From: Gammaproteobacteria bacterium
GTDB taxonomy: Bacteria > Pseudomonadota > Gammaproteobacteria > Burkholderiales > Burkholderiaceae_C
Direction: 5' to 3'
Assembly: GCA_025359085.1 (NCBI GenBank)
Contig: JANYHL010000125.1
Coordinates: forward strand, 841-64,840
DNA length: 64,000 bases
Part shown: piece by piece, positions 7,601-22,328 of the stretch
Layout of the letters: every line of letters starts with the position of its first letter
Numbering within the stretch: the stretch's first letter is position 1
Notes under the pieces: model-generated
Databases searched by the model: none
What the model saw: only the letters and a program-made list of their open reading frames with translations
What the model was told of the DNA's origin: nothing
Made by a program: the position numbers and the translations under genes

Positions 7601-8481
7601 GCTACACCGAAGAAGCCACCTCTTTTGCTTGCGCAGACGACAATTTGCTGGGGATTCTCTGTCAACCCGACACGCCCGCCCAGACCGGCGTCATCGTGAT
7701 TGTGGGCGGTCCTCAATACCGTGTCGGCAGCCACCGGCAATTCGTGCTGTTGGCACGCGCCCTGGCCGCTGCTGGTTATGCCGTGCTGCGTTTTGACTAT
7801 CGGGGCATGGGCGACAGCGAAGGCCAGCCCAGGCCGTTTGGGGCCGTCAGCGCCGACATTGCGGCTGCCATTGACGTCCTGCAACAACGGGTGGCGTCGG
7901 TCCGGCAAGTGGTCTTATGGGGCTTGTGCGACGGCGCCTCGGCGGCGCTCCTTTATTGTTTCGAGCATGACGATCCTCGCGTGGTCGGCTTGTGTCTGCT
8001 CAACCCCTGGGTTCGCTCCGAGGCCAGTCTGGCGCGAACCCAGATCAAGCATTACTACACGCAGCGTCTGATGCAGAAGACGTTCTGGCAGAAATTACTG
8101 AGTGGCAGAATGGCGCTGGGCGTCCTCAGTGATCTGACCTACAACATCCGGCTATCGACCTCGGGATCAGGCTGGCTGCGCACTGAAAAACAAAGCTTTC
8201 AGCAAAGCATGGCGCTGGCCTGGCAGCGCTTCAGTGGCCAAATATTGTTACTCTTGAGCGGCGATGATTACGTGGCCAAGGAGTTTCTGGAGTATGCCAA
8301 TACGAATGCCGCCTGGAAGGACGCATGGGCCCATGCTCATCTGCAACGCCACAACTTGCCCGAAGTCGATCACACTTGCTCCAGCGCGATGTCGCGCCAA
8401 CGGGTCGAACAACTCACCCTGGACTGGCTGCTACAGCAAGGTGCGTCCACCCACCGCAGCCGTGACGGGATGGCAGCCTGA
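7597..8481 (+). CDS. alpha/beta hydrolase 1, exosortase A system-associated (TIGR03100-like)
   Basis: VGGPQYRVGSHRQF, FDYRGMGDSEG, LWGLCDG nucleophile elbow, LLNPWVR, late DHT. Confidence 0.9.
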   Translation: MSYTEEATSFACADDNLLGILCQPDTPAQTGVIVIVGGPQYRVGSHRQFVLLARALAAAGYAVLRFDYRGMGDSEGQPRPFGAVSADIAAAIDVLQQRVASVRQVVLWGLCDGASAALLYCFEHDDPRVVGLCLLNPWVRSEASLARTQIKHYYTQRLMQKTFWQKLLSGRMALGVLSDLTYNIRLSTSGSGWLRTEKQSFQQSMALAWQRFSGQILLLLSGDDYVAKEFLEYANTNAAWKDAWAHAHLQRHNLPEVDHTCSSAMSRQRVEQLTLDWLLQQGASTHRSRDGMAA

Positions 8482-8599
8482 CATGCACCATCAACGTTTT
8501 GGCCCCCGCGACTGCGCTTTCCCCCATCCCGGCGCGCCAGATGGCCTGGATGACCACGAGGGTCAAAAAAATCATGCTTTATTTCTCGCCAGGGAGTAG

Positions 8600-9862
8600 A
8601 TGATGCTGCAGGCCAACGTCAGGCACGCACAGGACACAGGACGGAAACCGGCCATACCCTGGAATGGACCGAGATCACCCGCACTGACTGCCAACCTGCA
8701 TCCTGAAGGTCGGCTCAATAACCCGCTGCTCAGCGTCGATGTGCTGCGCCAGCTGGATGAAATTCCTTCGGACGTCGCGCGGCTCTTTGCCTGCGCAGAG
8801 CTGCAAAACGTGGAGTCAGGTCTGGCCTGGTACAAGAATTTGGTCAATTCCGTTTATCCAGACCACGACGGACTATTGATCTACATTCTGAGAAAACAGG
8901 GGCAAGCACTGGCACTTCTTCCCGTGCTGAGGCAGGGCAAGTCGGGGGGCTATTGCATCAAGTCGCTCAGCAACTACTACACCACGCTCTACGCGCCGTT
9001 CATCGCACCGGAAGTGACGGTGCATGATTTGGCGCTGCTGCTGAAGACCCTGCGCGATGACCAGTCCCCGCTGGCGTCCTTGCAGTTTTCGCCGATGGAC
9101 CCCGACGCAAGAAGCCACCAACTCTTGCTTGGCGCACTGAAACTTGCCGGGCTGCCGGCCTTTGAATTTTTCTGTTTTGGCAACTGGTACCTGCCTGTGG
9201 CGGACGATTGGCCCCGCTATTTTCGCAACCGGGAGGGCCAACTGCGCAGCACCATTAAACGCATGAGCAAAGCCTTTGTGACCGCCGGGGGCAGCTTGGA
9301 GCTTGTCATGGGAGGGGCCAACCTGGAGCGCGGGATCAATGCCTACCTGAAGGTCTATGCCGCCAGTTGGAAGCGTGCGGAGCCTTACCCTGGTTTCATG
9401 CCGGGCCTGATGCGCGTCTGTGCCGAACACGGCTGGTTGCGACTGGGCATCGCCTGGCTGAATGGTGAGGCCATCGCCGCCCAAACATGGATCGTGGCCA
9501 ACGGCAAAGCCAGCATTTACAAATTGGCCTACGACGAAAGCCATAAAAAACACGCCCCCGGCACACTGTTGACAGCGATGCTGTTGCAACACGTGTTCGA
9601 GCAAGATCAGGTCACGGAGGTCGACTACCTGGTCGGGGATGACCCCTACAAGAAAGCCTGGATGAGTCATCGCCGTGAGCGCTGGGGTATCGTGGCCTAC
9701 AACCCGAAATCACTGCGCGGGCTGTTCGGCTTCAGCCGGGAACTGCTGGGCAGAGCGATAAGAGCAGGCGTGACGCGTGCCATGGCGCTGGTGTCCCCGC
9801 CGAAACAGGCCAAGATTGCAAACGCCACTCCGAACAGCAAGGCCCATGGCAGGGGACCTTAA
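8600..9862 (+). CDS. GNAT-fold (CelD/BcsL-, FemAB-like) acyltransferase
   Basis: RLGIAWLNGEAIAAQ, YKLAYDE, PGTLLTAMLL, EVDYLVGDDPYKKAW. The true start may be downstream of 8600. Confidence 0.8.
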   Translation: MMLQANVRHAQDTGRKPAIPWNGPRSPALTANLHPEGRLNNPLLSVDVLRQLDEIPSDVARLFACAELQNVESGLAWYKNLVNSVYPDHDGLLIYILRKQGQALALLPVLRQGKSGGYCIKSLSNYYTTLYAPFIAPEVTVHDLALLLKTLRDDQSPLASLQFSPMDPDARSHQLLLGALKLAGLPAFEFFCFGNWYLPVADDWPRYFRNREGQLRSTIKRMSKAFVTAGGSLELVMGGANLERGINAYLKVYAASWKRAEPYPGFMPGLMRVCAEHGWLRLGIAWLNGEAIAAQTWIVANGKASIYKLAYDESHKKHAPGTLLTAMLLQHVFEQDQVTEVDYLVGDDPYKKAWMSHRRERWGIVAYNPKSLRGLFGFSRELLGRAIRAGVTRAMALVSPPKQAKIANATPNSKAHGRGP

Positions 9863-9904
9863 TAAAGTTCGCCAAGGCTCTTTCTTCACTTGGAAGGATT
9901 GAAT

Positions 9905-10651
9905 ATGAGATTCGGACCATTGTTAAACCATCATCATCTGCTCGCGGCAATACGAACAGGCGGCGCCGTGCTTCTTGCTTTTTTGACGGGTTTCCATGCA
10001 GCGGCAGACGCACAAGAAGTCCCAGGGGGCTGCGGATCATTGACGCAGCCCTGGGGTCCCTTTGACTACCGTCCTGACCACTACATACCCGAGAACACTT
10101 ACCGGTCACACCGAGCGCTACTCGCAATTGTGGAGCAGGCCCATTTCACACCGGAGGTCGAAATGCTGGCCCGGGGTAAAACCAGCACAACAGCCGGCAA
10201 CGACATCTCCTACACCCTGGGTATTTTCCCCAACCACCATCGCGCCCTGCTGGCCATGGCGGCACTGAGTGACAAGGAGAAGACGGACAAACCCTATGGC
10301 GCACGCTACTCGGTGGAGTGCTTTTTCCGGCGCGCCGTCGCCTGGCGACCTGATGACAATATTGTTCACATGGTTTACGCCAGGTATCTTGCCAAAGCAT
10401 CGCGTGTCGCTGAAGCCGAGCAACAGCTCGGTATCGCAGCCAGCCAGGCCAACGACAACCCGCTGACTCACAACAACCTCGGTTTGATTTACTTCGACAT
10501 GAAGAACTACGGCCAGGCGCTCTTTCATGCGCATAAGGCTTACGCCCTTGGGCTGGAAATATCCGCCCTGCGAAAACAATTGGAAAGCGTCGGCAAATGG
10601 AAAGAACCCCGGTCGGAAGCTGCGCTGGAACCGGTTAAAAATACACAGTGA
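9905..10651 (+). CDS. Exported TPR-repeat protein of unknown function
   Basis: Signal-like segment ending AAADA; CGSL..WGPFDY motif; C-terminal TPR-like helices (HNNLGLIYFDMKNYGQALFHAHKAYALG). ATG 9905 has an AAGGA SD. Confidence 0.7.
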   Translation: MRFGPLLNHHHLLAAIRTGGAVLLAFLTGFHAAADAQEVPGGCGSLTQPWGPFDYRPDHYIPENTYRSHRALLAIVEQAHFTPEVEMLARGKTSTTAGNDISYTLGIFPNHHRALLAMAALSDKEKTDKPYGARYSVECFFRRAVAWRPDDNIVHMVYARYLAKASRVAEAEQQLGIAASQANDNPLTHNNLGLIYFDMKNYGQALFHAHKAYALGLEISALRKQLESVGKWKEPRSEAALEPVKNTQ

Positions 10652-10737: not shown

Positions 10738-12495
10738 ATGACACTTTTTGCGGGCGCTCTAAGCCTGAATACCGATCGCCTGTCACCTGCGCTGAAGCTT
10801 TCATTGCGCGCTAACCTGCGCAGCGGCGACGACCAGCGGGGTAGCTGGTGCGTCCACGAACAGGCGTCATTTTTCTTGGTCAAGTGGGACTCCGGTGCTT
10901 TTGCGGAGCCTGCCTGGCGCGCGTCTCCTGACGGATCCGTCTGTGCGCTCGCTGGCGATCCGATCCTGCTGGAGAACGGCCGCAGGCTCAAGCGTCTGGA
11001 ACAGATGGCACGCCTCGCACCAGAACTGAGCACCCTGCAAGACACCGCGCTGGCGCAATGCCGTGGCTCATTTGCGTTGGTCCACTACGCAGCCGCGACC
11101 CAAACGCTCTGTCTGAGCACGGATGCGCTGGGGTTACGTTCAATCTACTATGTCATTCAAGATGACTGCCTGATTTTTGCCACAGCATTGCGGGTGCTCG
11201 AAGCCGTGCCCGAAGTACGCAAGCAATTGTCTCTGCAGGGTATGGCGGAGCTCAGCGTTTTTTCGTTCCCCCTGGCAGAACGCACGCCCTATGAAGGGCT
11301 GAAAATTCTGCGGGAGTGCGAGGTCCTCACAGCACGCACGGCGGGTGTCAAGATGCACCGTTATTACGACTGGTCCACGCAGGAAGATGCCCCCAGCCAG
11401 GCCACCGATGCAGCAGCGCAACTCCATGCCACTTTCCGCGAAGCGGTTGACGCCCGCTTGAGCCAGGATCAGCGCGTTTACAGCTTTTTAAGTGGCGGCA
11501 TGGACTCACGCGCGATCGTCTCCACCTTGATTGATCGGGGACGGCAGGTGGAGGCGCTCAATTTCTCGTCGCCCGCGTCACAGGACCAGCGCTATGCCCT
11601 GTCGTTTGCGACGCAAGCCGGTAGCGGCTGCCACTTGCACTGCTTGCCGGGTGGCAACTTTCCCAATTTCTCGTTCCTGGCGCTGGCCGCAAAAACCGCA
11701 CTCGAGCAAAACGAGCCGACTTCAGTGGATCGTCCACAGTTCATCTGGTCTGGCGACGGCGGCAGTGTTGGCTTGGGTCATGTCTATATGGATGAACGCA
11801 TGCTGGAGCTCGGCGCACAGGGCGACGTTAAAGGTGCCGTGGCGCATTTTCTTGCGCTCAACAGGATTGCACTTTCAAGTCGAGTACTCACGGCGTCTGC
11901 CCGGGAACAGCAAGCGCACTTGATGTTTGACAGTGTCCTGAGCGAGGTCCATCGCTACCCGCGCGAAGATGTGGGTCGACGTCTCTACCTGTTCCTGCTC
12001 TTCAACGACCAGCGCCGCCATTTGTTCAAGCACTTTGAGACCATTGATCAACATGGACTGGAGTTATTGACGCCTTTCTTTGATGCAAAATTACTCAAGA
12101 CGGTCGCAGCCACCCCGGCGCGCTGGGGCGTGCTGCATCGTCTGTATGCGCAGTTGTTCGAGCACCTCCCGGCGTTTGCACGCCGGACCCCGTGGCAGAC
12201 CTATCCAGGCCACCAGCCCTGCCCGCTGCCAGGAGACCCACTCGCAAGTTACCAGTGGGCGCGTCACGTGGCGCCTGCCCCCGATGGCCTCAAAGAACGT
12301 GGCCAGCTGGCGCTGGAACTGCTCCAGACATTCAACTGGCGCATGCGCCCGCAAGTCTTTTCACCCGCCCTTGTCGGGTTGGCGGCACTGTTACACGCCT
12401 CCGGTCTGCGCGATTGTCGACACGTCTTGCAACTGCTGCAGCTCTACCGTTTGCACGATGCCCAGACACGGTCCCAGCAGCGGGTTCGATCGTGA
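10738..12495 (+). CDS. Asparagine-synthetase-like amide ligase lacking the N-terminal glutaminase Cys
   Basis: FLSGGMDS PP-loop, SGDGG, PFFD and a degenerate Ntn domain (DALGLRSIYY); starts MTLFAG rather than MCGI. Confidence 0.8.
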   Translation: MTLFAGALSLNTDRLSPALKLSLRANLRSGDDQRGSWCVHEQASFFLVKWDSGAFAEPAWRASPDGSVCALAGDPILLENGRRLKRLEQMARLAPELSTLQDTALAQCRGSFALVHYAAATQTLCLSTDALGLRSIYYVIQDDCLIFATALRVLEAVPEVRKQLSLQGMAELSVFSFPLAERTPYEGLKILRECEVLTARTAGVKMHRYYDWSTQEDAPSQATDAAAQLHATFREAVDARLSQDQRVYSFLSGGMDSRAIVSTLIDRGRQVEALNFSSPASQDQRYALSFATQAGSGCHLHCLPGGNFPNFSFLALAAKTALEQNEPTSVDRPQFIWSGDGGSVGLGHVYMDERMLELGAQGDVKGAVAHFLALNRIALSSRVLTASAREQQAHLMFDSVLSEVHRYPREDVGRRLYLFLLFNDQRRHLFKHFETIDQHGLELLTPFFDAKLLKTVAATPARWGVLHRLYAQLFEHLPAFARRTPWQTYPGHQPCPLPGDPLASYQWARHVAPAPDGLKERGQLALELLQTFNWRMRPQVFSPALVGLAALLHASGLRDCRHVLQLLQLYRLHDAQTRSQQRVRS

Positions 12496-12517
12496 CCACG
12501 GGTCTATCGCCAACACG

Positions 12518-14149
12518 CTAGGGTTCAGCAGTGCGCAACTGACCATTCGCCGCACGCGGGGTGGGTGTGGTCATTGCCTGTTGATAGTCTTTGATGCGCT
12601 TGTTAACGCAAAAGCAAAAAATTGAACCATTGAGGCGCGAGAACACCGGGGAGAAAGCAAAGCGGCGTCCGAGCAATTTGGAGATGCCGCGCTGAAGATA
12701 ATAGTTCCAGGCGTGGCGGCGTGGCGATGTCGTCCACAGCAGTGCATTCCAGCGCCTTACCCAAGGCAGCAGTCGGGCTTGCGCGCGCGAAAGCACGCCC
12801 TGCGCCACCAGAAAGGCAAGATACTCCTGTCGGAGCTTGGCATCCACCGGGATCACCGGCGCTGGATACTCAAGCACGCTGGCCATTTTTATTTGCCCGA
12901 ACATCGCGCGCGGCAGTCCGGCCTGCTCGGCCAGTCGGCGCGGGATGGGTCGGTCGTAGTCCGTGTGCAAACGCCACGGTTCCATTTCCTCGGACTCAGT
13001 GATTCTGAAGATATCGGCCCGGCTCCTGGCACCCAAATACGGAAAAGCGAGTTGAACATAACCCGCCTGAAGCCGGACCTCAGTCAGACCATGGTTGCCC
13101 AAATCAACACGCATCAGATCCGGATTGAGCATACCGGGACGATCAGCATAGTAGTGTCCTGGGTACCACATCTCACCCAGGCAACCCGTCAGCAACACCG
13201 CCGGTTGGCGCACATGGTCGCTTATCTGCTGCAGGTTGAAGTCGCCGGTTTCATGCATGCAGGCATAAAACAGATACTCCTGTGCGCCGTCATGCTCCAG
13301 CGCACGACGGTCAATTGGCTCACACGGGAGCCCGAAGAACTCGCAGATGGCGCCGCCGTCGTCGTCGAGTTCAAGCTGCTTGTCCTCATCGGCAAAATAG
13401 CCTTTGCTTTTGCTTTTGGTCACGGTGAAGACCAGATCAACGCCGTGTTCTTTCGCGATAGCATTGGCCGCCGTCGAGTCATAGCCCTTGGACTGTGTGG
13501 AGAAAATCACCATTTGGCGCGAGCGTGAAGCATCGCGTGAATTTGCTGCGAGTCGCCGGTAGCAGTCGCCAAGGTAACCCGCGTAAGCCGTGAAATCGGC
13601 AAAGGCAGGCGGCAGCGGCTTGTCCAACTCCCTGACCCGTCCGGGTGCGACCTCAAGGTTCCAATGCATCAAACGGTTGACTTTGCCGTTTTTGGTCGGA
13701 ATCTGGCGCACGTAACGTTGGATGCCCTGCATCAGCGAGCTGTTGATGGCGTCATACGCTGTGAAGACGGGGGCGAGCTCATCGTTCTGCTGGGCAAGCA
13801 GCAAGGGCAGCGAGTTTGCCACCACCACGTGGTTTGCGTCGCCGCTCGCCCACCAGTAAAGATAGTCAGTGGTGCTGGCGCTGGCGACGAACACCAATGA
13901 CTCCCCCCGGAGCACAGCCCCTGAGCCGAAAACGCAGGCGCTTTGATCAAACCCCGCCTCTGTGAAGGAGCCGTCCCAGAGTCCCTCGATGAAACCCTGT
14001 TCAAAGACCTCAACCCAGGGTCCATGGGTGACCGTGGCCTTCTGTTCCAACGAGTCAACCCGGGCCAGCCATGCCAGTCTGGGCATCGCCTGATTGGGGA
14101 GGAAGGTAAGTTTCACGCCAAGTGCCTTTAAAAATATTGATGCATGCAA
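12518..14149 (-). CDS. Hypothetical protein with a divergent N-type ATP-pyrophosphatase (Asn-synthetase-like) domain
   Basis: FSTQSKGYDSTAA (SGxDS-like), VLLTGCLGE, DYDRPIPRRLAE..FGQ.K. Alternative GTG start at 14116. Confidence 0.6.
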   Translation of the reverse strand: MHASIFLKALGVKLTFLPNQAMPRLAWLARVDSLEQKATVTHGPWVEVFEQGFIEGLWDGSFTEAGFDQSACVFGSGAVLRGESLVFVASASTTDYLYWWASGDANHVVVANSLPLLLAQQNDELAPVFTAYDAINSSLMQGIQRYVRQIPTKNGKVNRLMHWNLEVAPGRVRELDKPLPPAFADFTAYAGYLGDCYRRLAANSRDASRSRQMVIFSTQSKGYDSTAANAIAKEHGVDLVFTVTKSKSKGYFADEDKQLELDDDGGAICEFFGLPCEPIDRRALEHDGAQEYLFYACMHETGDFNLQQISDHVRQPAVLLTGCLGEMWYPGHYYADRPGMLNPDLMRVDLGNHGLTEVRLQAGYVQLAFPYLGARSRADIFRITESEEMEPWRLHTDYDRPIPRRLAEQAGLPRAMFGQIKMASVLEYPAPVIPVDAKLRQEYLAFLVAQGVLSRAQARLLPWVRRWNALLWTTSPRRHAWNYYLQRGISKLLGRRFAFSPVFSRLNGSIFCFCVNKRIKDYQQAMTTPTPRAANGQLRTAEP

Positions 14150-14172
14150 AGCGGTACAACTCGTCTCATCGT

Positions 14173-16074
14173 CTACTGCCTGATCAATTCGACGATCCGA
14201 TCTGCTGCGGTGTGATGGGCGGCGTCAACGGCGGACCGGAACTGTGGCGAGAACGGCTCCAACACGTAGTCGATCACCGACTGGTGTTCCTGCGGCTGGC
14301 CAACACCGATCTTGACACGGCGAAATTTATCATCCTGGAACGCCTGCAGAATGGAGCGAACACCACGATGCCCACCATCACCCCCGCGCATCCGCGCCCG
14401 CACGGTCCCAATCGGCAGGTCCAGGTCATCGTGGACCAGAATGCACTGGGTGGCATGAAATGAGAAATTCTGGGAGAGCCGAAGGAGTGCCGGGCCCAGG
14501 TCATTCATCGGGCTCATGGATTTAATCAGGCAAACCGGAGCGCCATGCAACTCCCCTCTTGCCACCAGGGCCAGGCCGCCCTCAGACACCCAGTCAATCG
14601 CCAGCCGCTGGGCCAAAAGTTCTACCGCACGATAGCCCACGTTGTGCGGCGTATCGGCTAGACCGGGGTCCGGGTTGCCGAGCCCGATGACCATGACGGG
14701 AGGCCGAACTTCGTTACGCGATTTAGACAACACGGGAGGCAACTCAGGTGCAACTGACGAGGCCTCGGGTGTTGCCGTTGGGATTTGCCCACCAGAGGCC
14801 ACGTGCAGCAGCTCGCAGACATCGCAGGACTGCAAGCGTGCACAGTCAGAACGCCAGCACTTGACATCGGCGGTCCGGGCGACGATCAGGCGCTGCAGGT
14901 GATCGGCTTTGTGCGAGCCTTTCAATAAAACCAGATCCTGCGGGCGCAGGTAGGCACGCAAAAACGCAAAGGCGTCCGGCAAAGATGCAAAGGCCCGCAA
15001 GTCGTGCTGGGCCATTCGTTCGGCACGCAGTGCGGCTGAGGCCCGCGGACCAACGAACACGACGCAATCGGCCACGGCCAGCGCCATCTGTGCAATTTCA
15101 ACATAGCGCCGACTGGAATCGCCCTGGTAGTCCGAGATGGTTCCGATGACGATGACCTTGCGCGGCGCGTTGGCCTGGCGCATGAATTCAAACGCCGGCG
15201 CGATGGTGGACAACGGCGCCTTCCAATCATCACGAATGAACGTTATGCCATCCACGCTGACCGGCGCCATGCGTCCTTCAAAGGGCTCCACACTGGCCAG
15301 CGCCTGCGCCGCTACTGCAAGCGGTGCGCCCAGCGCAACGCCGCTCGCCAGTGCCGCCAGGACCACCGAGGCCCAGTGCGTGCCACAGAGTTGGGTTTGC
15401 ACACGGACCGAGTCGCCCTGCCACGTGGCGTTGAGGGAAAGACGCTCCGGCCAGACCGATTGAATCGCCTCACCCCGCAGCATGGCGTCACCCGAGACGC
15501 CATAGGTCACGCAGCGGCCCGAGAACAATGAACGCATCGCCAGCACCCGCGGGTCATCCACATTCAGAACGGCGATGCCGTCTGACGGTAACGCGCTGAT
15601 CAGCTTGCCTTTCTCCTGGGCGATGGCGTCTTGGCTTCTAAACGCGGTGAAATGGTCTGCGCCAATATGGGTCACTACGCCAACCGTGGGGCGCACCAGC
15701 GCCAAGGGCAAGTCCATCGCCCCAGGTCCGTGGGCAGACATTTCGGTCACGCAATAGGCGTGCGACCGGCGCGTACCAAGAATCACCCGAACCATGTCCA
15801 TCGGCCAGTTCAAGGAACCTGGATTGGTGCGCCCATTTCCCAGGTGGCGCTGCAAAATACTGGCGATCAAATCTTTGGCGGTGGTCTTGCCGGAACTGCC
15901 CGTGATGCCGACGAACACGGTATTGCGCAAGCGACGACGATACAGAATGGTCAGCCGATACAGCGCTTGATCATAAAAACGGCGCCAGCGCCACGCCACC
16001 CCAGCCGCCATGGCGGTGAAGCGTGCCGGAATTATCTTCTGAGCAGTTTTGGCGAGGGTGCTGGCAGCTTGCAT
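14173..16074 (-). CDS. Mur-ligase (MurF-like middle and C-terminal domains) fused to a C-terminal peptidyl-tRNA hydrolase domain
   Basis: Mur part: GITGSSGKTT, VTEM, THIGADH, LNVDDP, DDWKAP, LLKGS. Pth part: IGLGNP..TPHNVG, MN, VHDDLDLP, GGHRG, RVKIGVG, DYVL. Single uninterrupted 633-aa frame. Confidence 0.9.
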   Translation of the reverse strand: MQAASTLAKTAQKIIPARFTAMAAGVAWRWRRFYDQALYRLTILYRRRLRNTVFVGITGSSGKTTAKDLIASILQRHLGNGRTNPGSLNWPMDMVRVILGTRRSHAYCVTEMSAHGPGAMDLPLALVRPTVGVVTHIGADHFTAFRSQDAIAQEKGKLISALPSDGIAVLNVDDPRVLAMRSLFSGRCVTYGVSGDAMLRGEAIQSVWPERLSLNATWQGDSVRVQTQLCGTHWASVVLAALASGVALGAPLAVAAQALASVEPFEGRMAPVSVDGITFIRDDWKAPLSTIAPAFEFMRQANAPRKVIVIGTISDYQGDSSRRYVEIAQMALAVADCVVFVGPRASAALRAERMAQHDLRAFASLPDAFAFLRAYLRPQDLVLLKGSHKADHLQRLIVARTADVKCWRSDCARLQSCDVCELLHVASGGQIPTATPEASSVAPELPPVLSKSRNEVRPPVMVIGLGNPDPGLADTPHNVGYRAVELLAQRLAIDWVSEGGLALVARGELHGAPVCLIKSMSPMNDLGPALLRLSQNFSFHATQCILVHDDLDLPIGTVRARMRGGDGGHRGVRSILQAFQDDKFRRVKIGVGQPQEHQSVIDYVLEPFSPQFRSAVDAAHHTAADRIVELIRQ

Positions 16075-16077
16075 CCG

Positions 16078-17550
16078 TCAGGCCCGAGTCAATAACTGTC
16101 GCCGGGCGCTTGCGATGCTGCGCAACAAATCAAGTACTTCGCGCGTTCCATGGCGATTGAGCCCCCACGACAGCGCGCTGTAAGAAACCCCACCCATGCC
16201 CAGCAGAATCAGCAGGTGCAGCACGCTCTCTTGGTTGCCTGGCAAAAAATGGCGCGTCGCGGTGACGACCGCATACATGCCCAAACTTGCCACCGCGGCA
16301 GGCAACATGGCGATGGCGAGTTGCACGAGACGGAGCTGGAGCACCGGCAGACCACGCATCATGCCCTGCAAAAAGACCAGCGGCGAGACGACCAGCCAGG
16401 CGAGACAAAGGCCCAGCAACCCGCCCTCATTCACACCAATGATGAAAGCCGGCGGCATGAGCAGCGAGGCCCAGATCACGTTGCGCAACACAATGTCGGA
16501 GCGCCCGACCCCCTGGATGGCGGTTGCCACAAAATTGGCCACCATTCGCAGTGGAATGATCAATGCCAACAACTGCAGTGGCACAGTGGAGGCCGCCCAC
16601 TTGGCACCAAGGATCACCTGCACAATTTCCGGGGCGATGCTGGACATGCCCCACAACACCGGGAAGGCAAAAAAACTCAGTACCCGGGTGCCCATGAGTA
16701 CGTTTTCACCGACCTTATGGAGGTCGTGCTGCATACGCGAAAAAGTGGGGAACGCCACTTGATTGACAAGGCCAGAAAGGCGTTGACTGGGCAGCGAGGC
16801 AAGGTGCATGGCAACCGAATAAATGCCGAGAATTTCATTACCCAGCCACTTGGCGCAAATCAGGATGTCAATCTGGGACAAAAACATCCAGAACACCTGA
16901 ATGGCGGTAAAGCTACCCCCAAAGCGCAACAACGAGCGCATACCTGTGAGTGAAAAATCCGGCCAGCGGGAAAAAGGGGAAAGCCAGTTGAGCCCGACGG
17001 TCTTGCCAAGCTGGCTGATCAGGGAGCCGACGACCAGTGCCCAGACACCAGCACCCGCCAGAGCCAGGGTCAGTGTGGTGAGGCTGGCAAGCACCGCATT
17101 GCACAAATCCAGCAGGGACCGATTGCGGAACTCCATCTTGCGCTGCAACTGGGCATCCGGGATAACCGCGAATCCCGCCAGCACAAATTGCAGGGACAGG
17201 GCGCGAATCACCGGGATCACGCGCGGCTCGTCATAGAAGCCGGCAATCAGCGGCGCCGCAAGCACCAACAGGGCAGCCAATGAAAAATGAATCACCAGGA
17301 TGACGCCAAATACGCGCCTGAGCAGAGGCTCATCGACGTCGGCCTTTTGCACCACCGCCGCCCCGAGACCCAATTCAGAGAACATGGAGAGAAATGACAC
17401 AAACACCGTGGCCATGGCGAGCAGACCATAGTCCGCGGGGGTTAGAAGTCGAATCACCGCGAGGGTGATTCCCCAGGTGATCAACTGGCTCGCCAGCCTG
17501 ACGCTGGCAGTCCAGCGAAATCCCGACAGCGCTTGTGACCGCAGGCTCAT
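16078..17550 (-). CDS. wzx: Wzx-type polysaccharide flippase (WzxC-like)
   Basis: About 12-14 TM segments; RLLTPADYGLLAM, ELGLGAAVVQ, GIYSVAMHL, QVAFPTFSR. Confidence 0.9.
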   Translation of the reverse strand: MSLRSQALSGFRWTASVRLASQLITWGITLAVIRLLTPADYGLLAMATVFVSFLSMFSELGLGAAVVQKADVDEPLLRRVFGVILVIHFSLAALLVLAAPLIAGFYDEPRVIPVIRALSLQFVLAGFAVIPDAQLQRKMEFRNRSLLDLCNAVLASLTTLTLALAGAGVWALVVGSLISQLGKTVGLNWLSPFSRWPDFSLTGMRSLLRFGGSFTAIQVFWMFLSQIDILICAKWLGNEILGIYSVAMHLASLPSQRLSGLVNQVAFPTFSRMQHDLHKVGENVLMGTRVLSFFAFPVLWGMSSIAPEIVQVILGAKWAASTVPLQLLALIIPLRMVANFVATAIQGVGRSDIVLRNVIWASLLMPPAFIIGVNEGGLLGLCLAWLVVSPLVFLQGMMRGLPVLQLRLVQLAIAMLPAAVASLGMYAVVTATRHFLPGNQESVLHLLILLGMGGVSYSALSWGLNRHGTREVLDLLRSIASARRQLLTRA

Positions 17551-18851
17551 GACTGGGCCACGTGCTCAAGCCGCTGCTGCAACAGCAAGGCGTCGAGAAA
17601 ATATTTGGTGGCCCAGTTCGGATAAGCTGCCCGCATGTAAGAGCCAAACAGCGGAAAGGATCCGGCCAACGCGCCCACCACCGCAGCATCATCGGACTGG
17701 CGCAATTGGAGCGCTTTCAGAAAATCAAGCAGTTTGTCCGCCTGTATGCGGTAACTTTCCTCCCCGGACAACTCGAACAAGCGATAGGCAACGATGGCGA
17801 TCTGCGCCGAACCGGTCAGACAGGAGGAAAAGCCGGCGGGCTCCCAGTCCGCATAAAAACGACCCGGCAGGTAGCCGTTGCTGGCCATGCGCGGCAGGAT
17901 GGCATCGAGACTGCGCCGAACGGCCTCGATAAAGTCGGATCGCCCCGCGAGAGCACCCACCTCAAGAATGCCCTGCAAGGTGTAGCCAATCGTGTGCGTG
18001 AGCGGCGCCTCGGAATGCGTCAGGCAATTGTGCGCAAACCAGCCATTGTGCCGCTGCTGACGCAACGCGGCTTCCACGATCCAAACCGCCATGCGTTTGT
18101 AGGCATCGTCCTGAGCCAGTTCACCAAAGCGATAGATTGACCAGGCGCACAGACAGGTGTAGGTCTTGATCTCGCCAACACTGACAAAAGCGCCATTGGT
18201 TTTGAAATACCCCTGCTCGTCCAGATCATTGACCAAAAAATCTGCTGCCTGTCGCGCGGCGGCCAGCAGCGTTGGGTCCGCTGAATAGCGGTAGGCGGAG
18301 CACCAGCCGTCAAGCACCATGCCGGTGTTGAATGTCGCGGCGGTCTGGCGCTCGGGCGGGCAGACCGGGCCGCCTTGGACGGCGCCAGAAGGCATTTGCA
18401 CCACCGTTTCCCACATCGCCATGCGCATCGCAGCCGCGGCCGCGACTGGGTCGTCAAACTGCGCCGCAAAGGCCAGCAGCGAGGTGATGATGTAGCCCGT
18501 GGTCTCGGGATACGATGCGCGCCACCCTGCATTTACCTTGTCTTGGTCGTCGTCGATATCGCATGGAAAATAGCCAAGAGACACGCCGTCATCCGGACTG
18601 GCGGCCTGCGCCTGCAACAGCCAGTGCACCGCAGCGCGCGCACGTTCTCGGGTTTCTCCTCGCACCGGTTGAGGCATTGCGGCGGCAAAGCGCCAGTGGC
18701 TGCGGATAACTTCACCGCGGAAGGCTTGGTTATGCGTTGGAAAAAGCGCCCGAAGCTCCCGTGCCACCGCAGCCGCACCCCAATAGGTGCTGCGCAGGCC
18801 ACCCTGCAAATATTGATGGCGCAGGATGCGGGCTATGGCGGTGGGCTTCAA
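17547..18851 (-). CDS. Hypothetical (alpha/alpha)-toroid protein (prenyltransferase/squalene-cyclase-like repeats)
   Basis: AVHWLLQAQ, YPETTGYII, WETVVQMPSGA, FNTGMVLDGW, QQRHNGWF, THTIGYTLQG, CLTGSAQ, NWATKYFLDAL. TTG start 18851 behind AGGAG. Confidence 0.65.
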   Translation of the reverse strand: MKPTAIARILRHQYLQGGLRSTYWGAAAVARELRALFPTHNQAFRGEVIRSHWRFAAAMPQPVRGETRERARAAVHWLLQAQAASPDDGVSLGYFPCDIDDDQDKVNAGWRASYPETTGYIITSLLAFAAQFDDPVAAAAAMRMAMWETVVQMPSGAVQGGPVCPPERQTAATFNTGMVLDGWCSAYRYSADPTLLAAARQAADFLVNDLDEQGYFKTNGAFVSVGEIKTYTCLCAWSIYRFGELAQDDAYKRMAVWIVEAALRQQRHNGWFAHNCLTHSEAPLTHTIGYTLQGILEVGALAGRSDFIEAVRRSLDAILPRMASNGYLPGRFYADWEPAGFSSCLTGSAQIAIVAYRLFELSGEESYRIQADKLLDFLKALQLRQSDDAAVVGALAGSFPLFGSYMRAAYPNWATKYFLDALLLQQRLEHVAQS

Positions 18852-18861
18852 CGGACACTCC

Positions 18862-20097
18862 TTAGAACATGACTTGACCACCAGCCACCAACAAGTTGAC
18901 GCCAGTCAGAAACGAGGCCTGTTCAGCCACCAGATAGGCCACCGCCTGGGCCACATCAGCGGGCGTTGCAATTCTCTTCAAGGGTGTCCGGGCGGCCTCC
19001 ATCTTGAAGACGCGTTCCTGATAGTGCTCAGTCAATTCGGTACGCGTCAGACCGGGCGACACCATGTTGACCCTAATCTGCGCCTCGGCCCACTCCGCCG
19101 CCATCGCCTTGGACAAGCCCATCAGTGCATATTTTGCGCACACATAGTCAGCCATGCCGGTGGCCGGAACGCCAATGGTCACTTGCGAAAGAATATTGAC
19201 GATAGAGCCGCCGCCGGCCGCTTTCATGGCGGGATAAACCGCTTGACACAACTGCAACACCGCTTTGACCTGATACGCCATGTGGCCCTCAAAATCGGGC
19301 CAGCCCAGTTCGCTGAGCGGGCGATTGATGAGATCGCCAACGGCGGCATTCACCAGCACCCGTGGTGGACCCAGCACCTGCTGCACCTGCACCATCAAAG
19401 CGGACACTGAATCAGCATTGCGCACATCAGCCTTCACCGCAAACGCAATGCCACCAGCGAGCTCAATCTCCCGCACCACCTGCAGCGCCCGGTCCGCACT
19501 GCGAAAATAGTTCACCGCCACGGCATAGCCATTTTTGGCCAGCGTCCTGGCAATTTGCGCACCGATGCCTCTGGAGGCCCCTGTCACCAGTGCCACAGGT
19601 CGGCTCGAATCAATTGGCGAGGGGGTCGGCGAATCCACAACCAAGGGCGATGGCGGTAAATCGTCCCTGACCTTGACCTTGGCAGTGCCCGTGACCAGCA
19701 CCTTGTCGTCCATGCTGCGAATCTCGGTATTGAGTACCAGGGTCCGGGTCGCATCGCTTTTACCCACCACTTTGGCGACCGCACGAACCGGCTCATCAAT
19801 GCGCACAGGACGCCGGAAGCTGAGGTCCTGACCCAGGTACAGGGCATGCTTGCCCGGCACGCGCATACCCACCAACTGGGAGAACAAGGACGCCAGCAAA
19901 ATTCCATGCACCACTTGCGACCCGAACTCGGTGCCCGCAGCATATCCGGCGTCAACATGCAAGGGGCTGTAGTCGCCACTTAGGGCAGCGAACGTTTGCA
20001 CATCCTGGTCGGAAAATGATCGCACCAACTCAAAGCTTTGCCCGACGGCAATATCGTCAAAACTGAACTCCGATGCTGGCGCAAAGTCATGCTTCAT
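18862..20097 (-). CDS. MaoC-type hot-dog dehydratase fused to an SDR (FabG-like) reductase
   Basis: FAALSGDYSPLH and VHGILLAS (MaoC); TGASRGIG, NAA, YVCAK, NMVSPG (SDR). Start MKHDF at 20097. Confidence 0.9.
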   Translation of the reverse strand: MKHDFAPASEFSFDDIAVGQSFELVRSFSDQDVQTFAALSGDYSPLHVDAGYAAGTEFGSQVVHGILLASLFSQLVGMRVPGKHALYLGQDLSFRRPVRIDEPVRAVAKVVGKSDATRTLVLNTEIRSMDDKVLVTGTAKVKVRDDLPPSPLVVDSPTPSPIDSSRPVALVTGASRGIGAQIARTLAKNGYAVAVNYFRSADRALQVVREIELAGGIAFAVKADVRNADSVSALMVQVQQVLGPPRVLVNAAVGDLINRPLSELGWPDFEGHMAYQVKAVLQLCQAVYPAMKAAGGGSIVNILSQVTIGVPATGMADYVCAKYALMGLSKAMAAEWAEAQIRVNMVSPGLTRTELTEHYQERVFKMEAARTPLKRIATPADVAQAVAYLVAEQASFLTGVNLLVAGGQVMF

Positions 20098-20125
20098 TTG
20101 AACCCTTGTGCATGGCGCGGACTGA

Positions 20126-20362
20126 CTACAGCTTGGCGCCCACGACCTGGACGACATCAAAATACGACACCATCAATTCGAAGTCAGAGACCTCGAAAGA
20201 AATCGAGAACTCCTCCTCCAAGGCCAGAACGAGATTGATATGGTTGGCAGAGTCCCAACCCGGCGTGTTGTCCATCGAGGTGTTGTCATCGATCATGGTC
20301 GCGTCCATATTCAGGATGATCGCCATCACCGCCCGAATTGTTTCCTCAACATCTTTAGACAT
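20126..20362 (-). CDS. Acyl carrier protein (ACP2)
   Basis: 78 aa, acidic, GWDSANHINLVLALEEEF motif; ATG 20362 overlaps the FkbH stop. Confidence 0.9.
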   Translation of the reverse strand: MSKDVEETIRAVMAIILNMDATMIDDNTSMDNTPGWDSANHINLVLALEEEFSISFEVSDFELMVSYFDVVQVVGAKL

Positions 20363-22328
20363 GCAATGGCTCCGAGCTGAGCACCTGCGCAGCTCGCTTG
20401 CTGGTCTGGGGTGGGACCGAAATCTGGAACCAGTCGGGTCGCCGGACCATGGCTTTTGCCAGGTCCAGCTCCCAGGTGGTGCTACCAGAGTCATCTTCGC
20501 CGAGTTTGCAAAAACCATGTTTCTCAAACAAGTCGCGCACCGGCACATTCTTGTCGGTGGGCACCACACGCCCGCATAATTTATTGAGGCCCCGCTGCCG
20601 CGCAGCATCGCAGAGGTAGGCCAGCATGGCCGTCTCCACCGTACGACCGATGACCCGGCAACTGAGCAAGAAATTATCAATAGTGAGTCGATTCGCGTCC
20701 GCGCGCGCCATCATGAGGCCAACAATGCCGTTGTCACCAAAGCGATCTCGTACCCCCACTGTCACGGCCAAGCTACTCGGGTCGTGCACACGATCATCAA
20801 GCTCAGCCTCACACAAGCGAACGGTGGTGGCGTTGAACTGATTGGTCTTTTGGGTTAATTGGGCTGCGCGCGCACGCGACGTTGAATCGACCGGGGCCAC
20901 ACTTAGCGTCATGTCCAGGTCCCGGTAATAGTCTTCCAGATTGCTGCTGGAAGAGCGCGCGGTTTCTGCCATGGCGCGCTGCTGGTACAACTGACCCCGG
21001 CGCCGATCTTCATCCGACAGGCCAAGGGTGTCGAAAAGCCCCTGCGCGCATAAGGCTTCAACATACAACTCGGGGCGGCACGGTAGTTCAATGACAGTGA
21101 CCATGGGCAATTCGCGCCGAACCTGTTCACATTCAGCCGGATTGTCATCAACGAAAACCATGTGATCCAGACCAATATTAAGTCGTGTGGCAATTATTTT
21201 GAGTGAATCGCTCTTGGGATTCCAGTGTATTTGCAGCTCAGCAAAATGTTCTTTGCGAATCGTCATGAAGCGGTGATTCGCAAACACGGCATCCACATCC
21301 GCAGGATTGTTCTTGCTAGCAACAGCCAACAGGACACCCCGGCGGTAGAGGTCAAGAATCGCTCGTTGAAATTCGACAAAAGCGCTGCCCGGGTAAGTCG
21401 GCCCCAGTTGAATTCCGTCAATGCCGTCCTCGCCGATGACGCCACCCCAAAGCGTGTTGTCTAGGTCGACCACCAAACACTTCTTGCTCAAGCCTTTCAA
21501 CGCACGGAAAAACTTCATGTATTCCTGCGCCAGGTTGCCCAACATACCCATAGCGATGGGCGCCCTGGCGTACAAGCGCATCCTGGCGTCATACCAATGC
21601 TGCGCACCAAACTGGTTAACCAGCCCGGCGTAGTCCACGATATGGACATCGACGATGTCGGCTGTTGTCTCGACCAGGGCGCGGTTCAGGTCAATGACCA
21701 GTTTTGCCTGGCCACGCGTCAAGCCAACATCGGCAATGCCAGCCCTTCTAAGTCGCGGTTGCGCCAGGTTGTGCACCAACAAGGGCATGGTGCTTGCGTC
21801 GCGTAATGTGCGCAACAAGGTGCCAATTTTTTGCTTGAAATTATCGACAACCAGGTCAAGGCTTGCGCTGGCCTGATCCGCATCCATGAAATCGGTATAA
21901 ACCTCAGGCAACCAGTCCTCCCCTTCTATGGCCAGGATAGTCACGTCAGGTGCGAACGCATAGAGACCACTGGTTGGGTCCAGAATCTCCTGGTTAATCA
22001 GGCTAAAACCGGACTGATAGACTTCAATACGCAGGCCATTGGAAAATCCATAGGCGACCAGGGAGTCCTGAATAAAGTCGATCGAAAATGACGAAAGCAA
22101 TGCCACCCGGTAGGGCCTGCAGGTGTTTAGCTCTGGCGGCAGTTCCTTTACCAGTTGGCGCAAGAATCTGAAATTCACCAGACTTGGATTATTTTGCAGC
22201 AGCGCATGCGCGCCCTGAAGCGCCGACGATATCGCGCCAGCCTTGACACTTTGCGCAATCGAGTTGCGTAACTCGCCGTCAGCATCAGCAGTGCGTTTGG
22301 GCACAATTGCCTTGCAACTCTCAGTCAT
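20355..22328 (-). CDS. FkbH-like HAD-IIIC glyceryl transferase/phosphatase
   Basis: VDLDNTLWGG, ASKNN, FVDDNPAE, QLTQKTNQFN, FLLSCRVIGR (acyl-carrying Cys). Confidence 0.93.
   Translation of the reverse strand: MTESCKAIVPKRTADADGELRNSIAQSVKAGAISSALQGAHALLQNNPSLVNFRFLRQLVKELPPELNTCRPYRVALLSSFSIDFIQDSLVAYGFSNGLRIEVYQSGFSLINQEILDPTSGLYAFAPDVTILAIEGEDWLPEVYTDFMDADQASASLDLVVDNFKQKIGTLLRTLRDASTMPLLVHNLAQPRLRRAGIADVGLTRGQAKLVIDLNRALVETTADIVDVHIVDYAGLVNQFGAQHWYDARMRLYARAPIAMGMLGNLAQEYMKFFRALKGLSKKCLVVDLDNTLWGGVIGEDGIDGIQLGPTYPGSAFVEFQRAILDLYRRGVLLAVASKNNPADVDAVFANHRFMTIRKEHFAELQIHWNPKSDSLKIIATRLNIGLDHMVFVDDNPAECEQVRRELPMVTVIELPCRPELYVEALCAQGLFDTLGLSDEDRRRGQLYQQRAMAETARSSSSNLEDYYRDLDMTLSVAPVDSTSRARAAQLTQKTNQFNATTVRLCEAELDDRVHDPSSLAVTVGVRDRFGDNGIVGLMMARADANRLTIDNFLLSCRVIGRTVETAMLAYLCDAARQRGLNKLCGRVVPTDKNVPVRDLFEKHGFCKLGEDDSGSTTWELDLAKAMVRRPDWFQISVPPQTSKRAAQVLSSEPLHV

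What the first reader, a model, noticed from the sequence alone, without database searches (positions are those of the whole stretch)
10738..18851. Candidate undescribed amide/peptide-decoration module (two glutaminase-less ATP-pyrophosphatases, Mur-Pth, flippase, toroid protein)
Seen: four contiguous genes on the minus strand with gaps of at most about 55 nt (toroid protein, Wzx, Mur-Pth, divergent PP-loop protein), converging on an Asn-synthetase-like gene without the glutaminase Cys. The wider locus makes uronic acids (Ugd, UDP-HexNAc dehydrogenase, UDP-GlcA epimerase). Established: Asn-synthetase homologues lacking glutaminase activity (beta-lactam synthetase, lasso cyclases) adenylate a carboxylate and couple it to an organic amine, and amino-acid amides of uronic acids occur in bacterial polysaccharides. 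Inference: these enzymes may build a short non-ribosomal peptide or amino-acid amide side chain on the lipid-linked repeat before flipping, giving a glycopeptide-like EPS.
Basis: inference. Interest (0 to 1): 0.8.

Follow-up and report, generated by a model that had tools for sequence, protein, structure and literature searches.

The report
Amide-ligase cassette in slime-polysaccharide locus
Inside a large exosortase-type slime-polysaccharide gene cluster sits a portable, unstudied four-gene cassette (a flippase, a cell-wall-type peptide ligase fused to a peptidyl-tRNA hydrolase, and two asparagine-synthetase-like enzymes without the usual glutaminase cysteine) that most likely hangs amino acids or a short peptide on a lipid-linked sugar unit, a chemistry for which no enzymes of this kind have been described.

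Summary
A (10738-12495) is an AsnB-like PP-loop enzyme with Thr in place of Cys2. B (12518-14116) has no Pfam or NCBIfam hit, but its confident model matches beta-lactam synthetase. C is a MurF-sister ligase without an N-domain, joined through a Cys4 knuckle to a catalytically intact Pth. D is a Wzx flippase. E is an (alpha/alpha)6 barrel.

The co-occurrence test passes for four of the five genes. Wzx-MurPth-B-(convergent A) recurs in the same order in another XrtA locus, and as an island among housekeeping genes. E is not part of that core.

Syntenic loci vary mainly in how many ligases they carry: one, two or five Mur-type genes, and nine tandem Mur-only genes in a Gemmatimonadota contig. 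This looks like stepwise peptide assembly. Ten of 11 genomes with the ligase also have exosortase A, against 29% in the sampled order.

The best reading is amide-linked amino-acid or peptide decoration of a lipid-linked glycan before flipping. The Pth domain may release tRNA after an aminoacyl-tRNA amine is ligated, as PEARL enzymes do. No product or substrate is known, and some copies are orphans, so the mechanism remains inference. I found no literature on this family.

The parts
10738..12495 (+). A: AsnB-like adenylating enzyme (585 aa) with Thr2 in place of the Cys2 nucleophile and PP-loop SGGMDS at residue 252. Convergent on B.
   Evidence: The family has 520 representatives at E<=1e-30. 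Residue 2 is T in 60, S in 41, A in 3, M in 1 and C in 0 of 105.
12518..14149 (-). B: very divergent beta-lactam-synthetase/AsnB-fold protein with no Pfam hit. Variant PP-loop STQSKGYDS at 217-225. The likely true start is near 14116.
14881..15969 (-). C, Mur-type ligase part (about residues 36-398). P-loop GSSGKT, E111, D140-H141, N171/D173/D174, and DDWKAP in place of MurF's DDxYNAN. It has no UDP-binding N-domain.
   Evidence: The tree places it in a clade sister to MurF with 100/99 support.
14815..14859 (-). C, invariant Cys4 knuckle C406-W-x3-C411-x5-C417-x2-C420 (putative zinc site). It caps the ligase and is shared with Mur-only clade members.
14176..14703 (-). C, peptidyl-tRNA hydrolase domain (residues 458-633). 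N467, H477, N524 and D549 are kept. R561 and K588 stand at the positions of the tRNA 5'-phosphate clamp. Family-specific changes are R->P476 and N->R570.
   Evidence: The genome has a separate canonical pth on contig C16.
16078..17550 (-). D: Wzx/MOP-family flippase (490 aa).
   Evidence: It is 55-74% identical to the Wzx next to Mur-Pth in L001, L003, L008, L009, L113 and L114.
17547..18851 (-). E: (alpha/alpha)6-barrel carbohydrate-active protein (GH88- or AGE-epimerase-like fold). A neighbour of the conserved cassette, not a part of it.
18862..23169 (-). Upstream co-directional genes: MaoC dehydratase-SDR (18862-20097), ACP (20126-20362), FkbH (20355-22328), AAC(3)-like N-acyltransferase (22321-23169). 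Probably a separate acyl-decoration sub-cluster that travels with E.
   Evidence: Syntenic in L001 and L008.
6674..10651 (+). Genes on A's strand: hydr2_PEP, hydr1_PEP, a second FemAB-like GNAT (8600-9862) and a TPR protein (9890-10651). All are XrtA-system accessory genes.

Best explanation
D-C-B-A is a portable cassette of carboxylate-amine ligases plus a dedicated Wzx. It most likely decorates a cytoplasmic, polyprenol-linked glycan unit with amide-linked amino acid(s) or a short peptide before the unit is flipped. In this window that unit would be the XrtA/PEP-CTERM exopolysaccharide repeat, which can contain GlcA and HexNAcA.

Shown:
- the identities of the genes,
- intact ATP-binding and catalytic motifs,
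- the conserved gene order across loci,
- the variable number of ligase genes.

Inferred:
- A and B adenylate carboxylates through the PP-loop (AMP + PPi) and couple them to an amine.
- The Mur domain of C activates a carboxylate as an acyl-phosphate (ADP + Pi) and adds the next amino acid. This parallels MurC-F on UDP-MurNAc, but without nucleotide recognition, because the N-domain is missing.

More speculative (about 0.3):
- The amine donor of C is an aminoacyl-tRNA.
- The fused Pth domain then cleaves the resulting N-acyl-aminoacyl-tRNA ester, releasing tRNA and exposing the new carboxylate. This is the same logic as PEARL enzymes, on a different fold.
For: Cassette conservation:
- The same four genes occur in the same order in L003 and L113, the latter outside any polysaccharide locus.
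- The closest B homologues lie on the same contigs as Mur-Pth (contig lengths 8404, 5102, 5809 and 89572 appear in both lists).

Ligase number varies inside otherwise syntenic loci:
- One Mur-Pth in the window, L003 and L008.
- Two in L001, which is otherwise 70-85% identical.
- In L114, three Mur-Pth plus two Mur-only genes, with Ugd, Wzy, Wzx and an AsnB-like gene.
- In L018, nine tandem Mur-only genes plus AsnB.

Other amide-forming partners: L017 couples a Mur-only gene with AsnB, GNAT, FemAB_like, ATP-grasp, GT4 and Wzx.

Phylogeny and motifs:
- The Mur domains form a distinct clade (100/99) sister to MurF, with their own signatures.
- Catalytic motifs of both domains are invariant across 25 sequences of 49-80% identity.
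- The Pth catalytic residues and the basic clamp positions are retained.
- Every tandem paralogue keeps its own Pth, which fits one hydrolysis per ligation.

Not a housekeeping copy: the genome has separate housekeeping pth and murF genes.

Link to exosortase: XrtA is present in 10 of 11 Mur(-Pth) genomes against 116 of 401 in the order sample. It is also present in the Undibacterium genome whose Mur-Pth pair is an orphan.

Mechanistic precedent: PEARLs phosphorylate a carboxylate, let the aminoacyl-tRNA amine attack, then hydrolyse the tRNA ester (PMC11962472).
Against: - No product, substrate or phenotype is known for any member, and no paper was found.
- Mur-Pth genes also occur alone among housekeeping genes: L006/L115, and L103-L106 next to pyc/secA or DUF2201/GDSL. 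They also occur as a bare pair with an AsnB-like gene (L007, L108, L110).
- Microvirga has the fusion but no XrtA.
- Mur-only clade members work without any Pth nearby, so the ligase chemistry does not need it.
- B and A also occur without any Mur gene (Marinobacter L004, Pelovirga L005).
- D may simply be the locus's only Wzx.
- The XrtA association counts genomes, six of which belong to one genus.
Confidence: 0.5

Rival explanations
1. The Mur-Pth (with or without AsnB-like partners) makes a soluble or otherwise non-polysaccharide product, such as a small non-ribosomal peptide, a modified metabolite or a modified protein or lipid. Its position in EPS loci reflects co-regulation or export rather than decoration of the repeat unit.
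For: - Orphan and pair-only contexts lack glycosyltransferases.
- The L018 array sits beside an HTTM-DCC1 membrane protein and a GNAT, with no sugar genes on the contig.
- Some Mur-family ligases (FolC, CapB, cyanophycin synthetase, CfbE) act on non-glycan substrates (established knowledge; partial hits).
Against: - A conserved Wzx sits directly next to the ligase in seven contexts, including the four-gene island L113.
- Ugd, Wzy, a deacetylase and GT4 genes accompany it in L114.
- It is enriched in XrtA genomes.
Confidence: 0.17
2. A, B and the third truncated AsnB-like protein only make primary uronamides (ammonia-dependent amidation) or are inactive paralogues. The Mur-Pth is functionally unrelated to them, for example a translation-rescue Pth fused by chance.
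For: - AsnB homologues in O-antigen and EPS loci are generally annotated as amidotransferases (for example wbpS labels in PMC3684757).
- Class II amidotransferase synthetase domains can use free ammonia (established knowledge).
Against: - An intact Gln-dependent XrtA amidotransferase is already present.
- Position 2 of the A family is conserved as Thr or Ser in 101 of 105 representatives, and B's PP-loop variant is invariant. Both indicate selection for a specific function rather than decay.
- The fusion is conserved over more than 120 full-length proteins with both active sites intact.
- The genome has its own pth.
- Gene order with A and B is conserved.
Confidence: 0.1
3. The Pth domain supplies the nucleophile rather than releasing the product. 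It hydrolyses a di- or oligopeptidyl-tRNA made by a FemAB-like transferase, and the MurF-like domain ligates the freed peptide. MurF does this with the preformed dipeptide D-Ala-D-Ala.
For: - The Mur domain's closest relatives are MurF enzymes, which add a dipeptide.
- FemAB-like genes are in the window (8600-9862 and 48945-50060) and next to Mur genes in L001, L008, L012, L017 and L107.
Against: - There is no FemAB-like gene in L003, L113, L114 or the orphan loci.
- FemAB enzymes are not known to use aminoacyl-tRNA as the acceptor (established knowledge).
Confidence: 0.08

Closest known systems
MurF / Mur ligase pathway of peptidoglycan (MurC-F), and pMur ligases of pseudomurein
   Same: It has the same central and C-terminal domains, P-loop and Mg/ATP motifs. 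MurF is the nearest clade. Several paralogues arranged in tandem suggest one residue or block per enzyme. A MOP-family flippase follows the cytoplasmic steps.
   Different: - There is no N-terminal UDP-MurNAc-binding domain.
- TIGR01143 scores 193 bits against a cut-off of 289.
- DDWKAP replaces DDxYNAN, and there is an extra C-terminal Cys4 knuckle.
- It is fused to Pth.
- It lies outside the dcw cluster, and a true murF exists elsewhere in the genome.
- The flippase is Wzx-type, not MurJ.
PEARLs (peptide aminoacyl-tRNA ligases; PMC11962472)
   Same: The proposed logic is the same: ATP phosphorylates a carboxylate, the amine of an aminoacyl-tRNA attacks, and the tRNA ester is then hydrolysed. 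One amino acid is added per enzyme.
   Different: The fold is unrelated (LanB-like with an ATP-grasp-like site, against a Mur ligase plus Pth). PEARLs extend scaffold peptides. For the window protein, tRNA use is only inferred from the fusion.
Beta-lactam synthetase / carbapenam synthetase / lasso-peptide cyclases (glutaminase-less AsnB homologues)
   Same: A and B have the two-domain AsnB fold, lack the Cys nucleophile and retain a PP-loop. B's best structural matches are 1mc1/1jgt and 1q15.
   Different: - Sequence identity is 12-14%.
- There is no clavam, carbapenem or lasso gene context.
- NF033535 scores 68 bits against a cut-off of 525.
- The A family conserves Thr or Ser at position 2, which those enzymes do not.
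- The context is an EPS locus.
XrtA/PEP-CTERM exopolysaccharide loci (Haft et al. 2006, cited in PMC13751637; Rubrivivax psc1, PMC3684757)
   Same: The window holds the full marker set: XrtA, EpsB_2, stp1/stp2, pepcterm_femAB, deacetylase, chain-length determinant, tyrosine kinase, ATPase, acyl-CoA ligase, PLP decarboxylase, hydrolases 1 and 2, and the amidotransferase.
   Different: The Wzx-MurPth-B-A cassette is not among the described markers. It occurs in only about 3% of genomes of the order, against 29% for XrtA.
MurT-GatD (lipid II D-iso-glutamate amidation; PMC3266927)
   Same: A Mur-family ligase without a nucleotide-sugar role works on a lipid-linked precursor together with an amidotransferase-type partner. 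It also has a Cys4 motif.
   Different: MurT's partner is a triad glutaminase, and MurT carries a DUF1727 C-domain. Here the partners are AsnB-superfamily adenylating enzymes, and the Cys4 lies after the C-domain.

Membership tests
MurF (TIGR01143) | Whole-protein score above the curated cut-off | tested here: not met
   193.4 bits against a cut-off of 288.6.
MurF (TIGR01143) | N-terminal domain that binds the UDP-MurNAc-peptide | tested here: not met
   The match starts at model position 59 and protein residue 36. Only about 50 residues precede the P-loop.
Mur ligase superfamily | Central ATP-binding domain with P-loop GxxGKT, plus the C-terminal domain | tested here: met
   PF08245 E 5e-31 and PF02875 E 1e-11. 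The P-loop and acidic motifs are invariant.
MurF (phylogeny) | Branches within the canonical MurF clade | tested here: not met
   It forms a separate clade (100/99 support, stem length 1.22) sister to MurF.
Peptidyl-tRNA hydrolase Pth (TIGR00447) | Score above the cut-off, and the catalytic Asn/His/Asn/Asp set | tested here: met
   132.9 bits against a cut-off of 100. N467, H477, N524 and D549 align with Mtb N12, H22, N70 and D95 and are invariant in the family.
Peptidyl-tRNA hydrolase Pth | Asn114 (E. coli numbering) in the GGHNG motif, and Arg before the catalytic His | tested here: not met
   The motifs read GGHRG (R570) and TPHN (P476).
Peptidyl-tRNA hydrolase Pth | Hydrolysis of peptidyl-tRNA | not testable with these tools
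   This needs an enzyme assay.
Asparagine synthetase B, glutamine-hydrolysing (TIGR01536) | N-terminal Cys nucleophile | tested here: not met
   A begins MTLFAG. In the A family residue 2 is T or S in 101 of 105 representatives and C in none. B has no Cys2 either.
Asparagine synthetase B (TIGR01536) | PP-loop SGGxDS and a score above the cut-off | tested here: inconclusive
   A has SGGMDS but scores 88 bits against a cut-off of 267. B has SKGYDS and no sequence hit, and is recognised by fold only.
Beta-lactam / carbapenam synthetase | Fold, plus the catalytic Tyr-Glu dyad and Lys, plus a beta-lactam cluster context | tested here: inconclusive
   The fold matches (E 9e-13, TM about 0.5). Catalytic residues were not mapped, and the gene context is absent.
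Lasso peptide cyclase (NF033535) | Score above the cut-off, with precursor and protease genes nearby | tested here: not met
   68 bits against a cut-off of 525. No such neighbours were found.
Wzx / MOP flippase | Polysacc_synt_3 or Polysacc_synt domain over the whole length | tested here: met
   PF13440 scores 262 bits. NF007773 scores 221 bits, below its equivalog cut-off of 273.
GH88 / AGE-type (alpha/alpha)6 barrel (protein E) | Fold, and catalytic residues | tested here: inconclusive
   The fold matches 3wiw (TMt 0.75) and 7d5g. Pfam gives only 16 bits to GH127. Catalytic residues were not examined.
XrtA/PEP-CTERM EPS system (the locus) | Exosortase A plus the TIGR030xx marker set | tested here: met
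   TIGR03109 scores 350 bits, and TIGR03013, 03087, 03088, 03019, 03006, 03007, 03015, 03016, 03018, 03097-03101 and 03108 are all above their cut-offs.
PEARL | LanB-like fold, with ATP- and aminoacyl-tRNA-dependent extension of a carboxylate | tested here: not met
   There is no LanB/PEARL homology. It is a mechanistic analogy only.

The most novel reading that the evidence does not exclude
The MurF-sister clade fused to Pth would be a new class of aminoacyl-tRNA-dependent amide ligase, a Mur-fold analogue of PEARLs with a built-in tRNA-releasing hydrolase. Together with Thr/Ser-2 AsnB-like and beta-lactam-synthetase-like partners, it would build a peptidoglycan-independent stem peptide on a Wzx-flipped glycan. 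In XrtA organisms, the free amine of that peptide could be the long-sought acceptor to which exosortase A transfers PEP-CTERM proteins, by analogy with sortase and the FemXAB-built lipid II cross-bridge.
Probability: 0.12. Interest if true: 0.93.

Novelty: new variant of a known kind. Interest (0 to 1): 0.72.

Why it matters
Amino-acid amides of uronic acids are common in bacterial surface polysaccharides, yet the enzymes that install them are mostly unknown. Here a coherent, transferable set of candidate enzymes is defined, with testable substrates.

The finding has wider implications:
- The Mur-ligase paradigm (one ligase per residue) may have been reused outside peptidoglycan, in arrays of up to nine genes.
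- A housekeeping tRNA-recycling enzyme may have been recruited into glycan decoration.
- A large AsnB-like family has replaced the Cys nucleophile by Thr or Ser rather than simply losing it.

The cassette also bears on an open question: what exosortase A attaches PEP-CTERM proteins to. That question matters for floc and biofilm formation in wastewater and in host-associated Burkholderiales.

Tried and rejected
- Sequence searches of B against Pfam, NCBIfam and PDB found nothing. Only the predicted fold identified it.
- A promoter and terminator scan of 8000-24500 gave counts equal to shuffles, so it says nothing about operon limits.
- The genome-contig scan with the Mur-Pth alignment was swamped by canonical actinobacterial MurF. 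Only L008-L018 were informative.
- My simple GC3-based gene caller failed on the very GC-rich Gemmatimonadota loci. Genes there were defined from tblastn hits instead.
- Five literature searches for a Mur ligase/Pth fusion, or for Mur ligases in EPS or Wzx clusters, found nothing relevant. The Curvibacter and Rubrivivax EPS papers do not mention these genes.
- C as the cell's housekeeping Pth or MurF: rejected.
- C as a peptidoglycan enzyme: unlikely, because it has no N-domain, lies outside the dcw cluster and sits by a Wzx rather than a MurJ.
- A as a lasso cyclase: rejected.
- E as part of the cassette: rejected.
- The Cys4 knuckle as a fusion-specific tRNA-binding element: rejected, because Mur-only members have it too.


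Full report
**Setting.** The 64-kb window is one large exosortase-A (XrtA/PEP-CTERM) exopolysaccharide locus.
- It holds XrtA itself (46116-47702), the priming transferase EpsB_2, stp1/stp2 glycosyltransferases, and the canonical pepcterm_femAB.
- It also holds the XrtA deacetylase, chain-length determinant, tyrosine kinase, ATPase and outer-membrane protein.
- The acyl-CoA ligase/PLP-decarboxylase/hydrolase-1/hydrolase-2 set is present, together with the intact XrtA amidotransferase (41657-43576, 1079 bits, N-terminus MCGI).
- Ugd, a TviB-like UDP-GlcNAc 6-dehydrogenase and WecB are also present.
- The genome is a 3.16-Mb, 149-contig assembly.

**Observation.**
- A (10738-12495, +) starts MTLFAG and carries SGGMDS. 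It reaches only 88 bits on the AsnB model, whose cut-off is 267.
- B (12518-14149, -) has no hit in Pfam, NCBIfam or PDB sequences. A 33-sequence alignment shows an invariant STQSKGYDS. Its AlphaFold model (pLDDT 91, pTM 0.91) matches beta-lactam synthetase, carbapenam synthetase, AsnB and TsnB9 with probability 1.0.
- C (14173-16074, -) has Mur_ligase_M and Mur_ligase_C followed by a full Pth domain.
- D is a Wzx.
- E (17547-18851, TTG after GGAG) models as an (alpha/alpha)6 barrel closest to GH88 and AGE-type epimerases.
- The minus-strand string continues upstream through MaoC-SDR, a 78-aa ACP (20126-20362; PP-binding), FkbH and an AAC(3)-like acyltransferase.

**The Mur-Pth fusion.** It belongs to a large unnamed family.
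- There are 1493 hits, and more than 120 are full-length fusions at 50-80% identity. Sources label them either "aminoacyl-tRNA hydrolase" or "MurF".
- Across 25 members the ligase P-loop, E111, D140-H141, N171/D173/D174 and DDWK285 are invariant. So are a CW-x3-C-x5-C-x2-C knuckle and the Pth residues N467, H477, N524 and D549.
- Aligned to M. tuberculosis Pth, the catalytic set is intact. The basic residues at the tRNA 5'-phosphate clamp positions are kept as R561 and K588; the role of those positions is taken from established knowledge of E. coli K105/R133.
- Two positions differ family-wide: Arg to P476 before the catalytic His, and Asn to R570 in GGHNG.
- The genome has its own pth, murF, murE, murD and a cyanophycin synthetase elsewhere, so C is an accessory gene.
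- In a maximum-likelihood tree, the ligase domains of the fusions group with Pth-less relatives from Gemmatimonadota, a gammaproteobacterial MAG and G170. The clade has 100/99 support and is sister to canonical MurF, away from MurD, MurE and CphA.
- The Cys4 knuckle and DD[WFM]KAP are signatures of that whole clade, not of the fusion.

**Co-occurrence.**
- L003, another XrtA locus, has heparinase-II/III-like, Wzx, Mur-Pth, B, a convergent A, then TPR.
- L113 has only Wzx, Mur-Pth, B and a convergent A. It lies between a CcdAB pair and putA, with no glycosyltransferases. D-C-B-A is therefore a portable unit.
- L001 is syntenic with the window at 70-85% identity on both sides. In the middle it has two Mur-Pth genes and a same-strand A-type gene (35% identical), and no B.
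- L008 (Rhodoferax) has one Mur-Pth plus an A-type gene.
- L114 and L009 (Propionivibrio-like) have Ugd, GT4, Wzy, a deacetylase, Wzx, three Mur-Pth, two further Mur-only genes and an AsnB-like gene.
- L014 (Microvirga) has GT4, a Wzx-like gene, Mur-Pth and a distant B homologue.
- L017 joins GT4, a Cys-type AsnB, Mur-only, GNAT, FemAB_like, ATP-grasp and Wzx.
- L018 (Gemmatimonadota) has nine tandem Mur-only genes, a Cys-type AsnB, a GNAT and an HTTM-DCC1 protein.
- E is absent from L003 and L113. It travels with the FkbH/ACP/MaoC-SDR/AAC(3)-like set (L001, L008) and belongs to a broad family, so it is a neighbour and not a member.
- tabulates all of these loci.

**Counter-examples.**
- Undibacterium (L006/L115) has two tandem Mur-Pth genes between rplS-NUDIX-cobD and a LysR gene.
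- Genus g76 genomes have two unlinked copies, next to pyc/secA and next to DUF2201/GDSL genes.
- L007, L108 and L110 have only an AsnB-like/Mur-Pth pair.
- B and A also occur without any Mur gene in the Marinobacter and Pelovirga polysaccharide loci.

**Genome-level association.**
- In an even sample of 401 genomes of the order, 11 carry a Mur(-Pth) relative.
- XrtA is above its cut-off in 116 of the 401 genomes, and in 10 of those 11. The eleventh genome is 85% complete.
- The Undibacterium genome with the orphan pair has XrtA on another contig. Microvirga has none.
- Six of the 11 genomes are from one genus, so the enrichment is suggestive and not proof.

**The A family.**
- An exhaustive HMMER search gives 520 representatives at E<=1e-30.
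- Of 105 representatives with a standard N-terminus, residue 2 is Thr in 60, Ser in 41, Ala in 3, Met in 1 and Cys in none.
- The PP-loop is SGG[LM]DS in 131 of 150.
- The nucleophile position of the Ntn-type domain has therefore been exchanged for a hydroxyl residue and then conserved. This argues for a retained but different N-domain function, rather than a dead glutaminase.

**Interpretation.** All the enzymes in and around the cassette make or break acyl bonds to amines. There are two PP-loop adenylating enzymes, an acyl-phosphate-forming Mur ligase and a peptidyl-ester hydrolase, next to a flippase for polyprenol-linked glycans. The locus also makes GlcA and HexNAcA.

The most economical model is amide-linked amino-acid or short-peptide decoration of the lipid-linked unit before flipping. 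The number of ligase genes would set the length of the chain. That model accounts for the cassette-like replacement seen between the window and L001, and for the arrays in L114 and L018.

The Pth fusion suggests a further step. Every tandem paralogue keeps its own Pth, so the coupling is probably one hydrolysis per ligation. The closest precedent is the PEARL mechanism: ATP phosphorylates a carboxylate, the aminoacyl-tRNA amine attacks, and the tRNA ester is hydrolysed (PMC11962472). I rate this sub-hypothesis at about 0.3. Pth-less clade members show that it is not obligatory for the ligase.

**Earlier notes of this scan.** Other agents met the same fusion family in other genomes and read it similarly. 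These are AI notes, not independent evidence. One of them supplied the name of the PEARL analogy, and I checked that mechanism in the paper.

**Verdict.**
- The cassette is real, conserved and portable, and it is undescribed in the searchable literature.
- Its product, its acceptor and any use of tRNA remain inferred.
- I class it as a new variant of a known kind, namely Mur-type stepwise amide ligation applied to a Wzx-dependent glycan. There is a modest chance that it represents a new tRNA-dependent ligase class.

Noticed in passing
L018:1192-12768 (Gemmatimonadota MAG contig DATBJZ010000134): Nine tandem Mur-ligase-only genes of about 400 aa each, 38-51% identical to the ligase part of C, with the Cys4 knuckle and DDxKA motif. 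They are flanked by an HTTM-DCC1 membrane protein, a Cys-type AsnB and a GNAT. This looks like a Mur-ligase assembly line for a longer peptide.
   Followed up: partly
L114:8001-17974 (Logan SRR31327628_119), and the related L009: An EPS locus with five Mur-type ligase genes: three Mur-Pth and two Pth-less genes of a different MurF-like type with DDTYNA. They sit around a Wzx and an AsnB-like gene, next to Ugd, Wzy, an acyltransferase and a deacetylase.
   Followed up: partly
window 10738-10760 (N-terminus of A), and 105 family representatives: The A family of AsnB-like proteins conserves Thr or Ser at position 2 (101 of 105 representatives, never Cys). This suggests an Ntn-type domain with a hydroxyl nucleophile rather than a lost glutaminase.
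   Followed up: partly
window 30540-35569: A 1064-aa VanZ plus Wzy_C/O-antigen-ligase-like membrane protein (30540-33734, -) lies divergent from a third AsnB-like gene that lacks about 105 N-terminal residues including Cys2 (33848-35569, +). The same VanZ/Asn_synthase pairing is seen in L003.
   Followed up: no
window 18862-23169: A sub-cluster of AAC(3)-like acyltransferase, FkbH, ACP and a MaoC dehydratase-SDR fusion. It suggests a glycerate-derived or hydroxyacyl unit built on the ACP and transferred to an amine. It is syntenic in L001 and L008 and travels with E.
   Followed up: no
window 8600-9862 and 48945-50060: There are two FemAB-type GNAT genes: the canonical pepcterm_femAB (TIGR03019, 513 bits) and a second, 420-aa Acetyltransf_6 protein beside the TPR gene and A. 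The second has no NCBIfam equivalog.
   Followed up: no
L113:5813-13268: The four-gene cassette sits directly after a PhdYeFM/CcdB toxin-antitoxin pair among housekeeping genes, which hints that it moves as an island.
   Followed up: no
window 4625-6619: The longest ORF of the exosortase-associated acyl-CoA ligase has about 124 extra N-terminal residues compared with homologues and the TIGR03098 model, so its true start is probably near 6250. It also matches amino-acid adenylation domains (TIGR01733, 258 bits, below the cut-off of 317).
   Followed up: no
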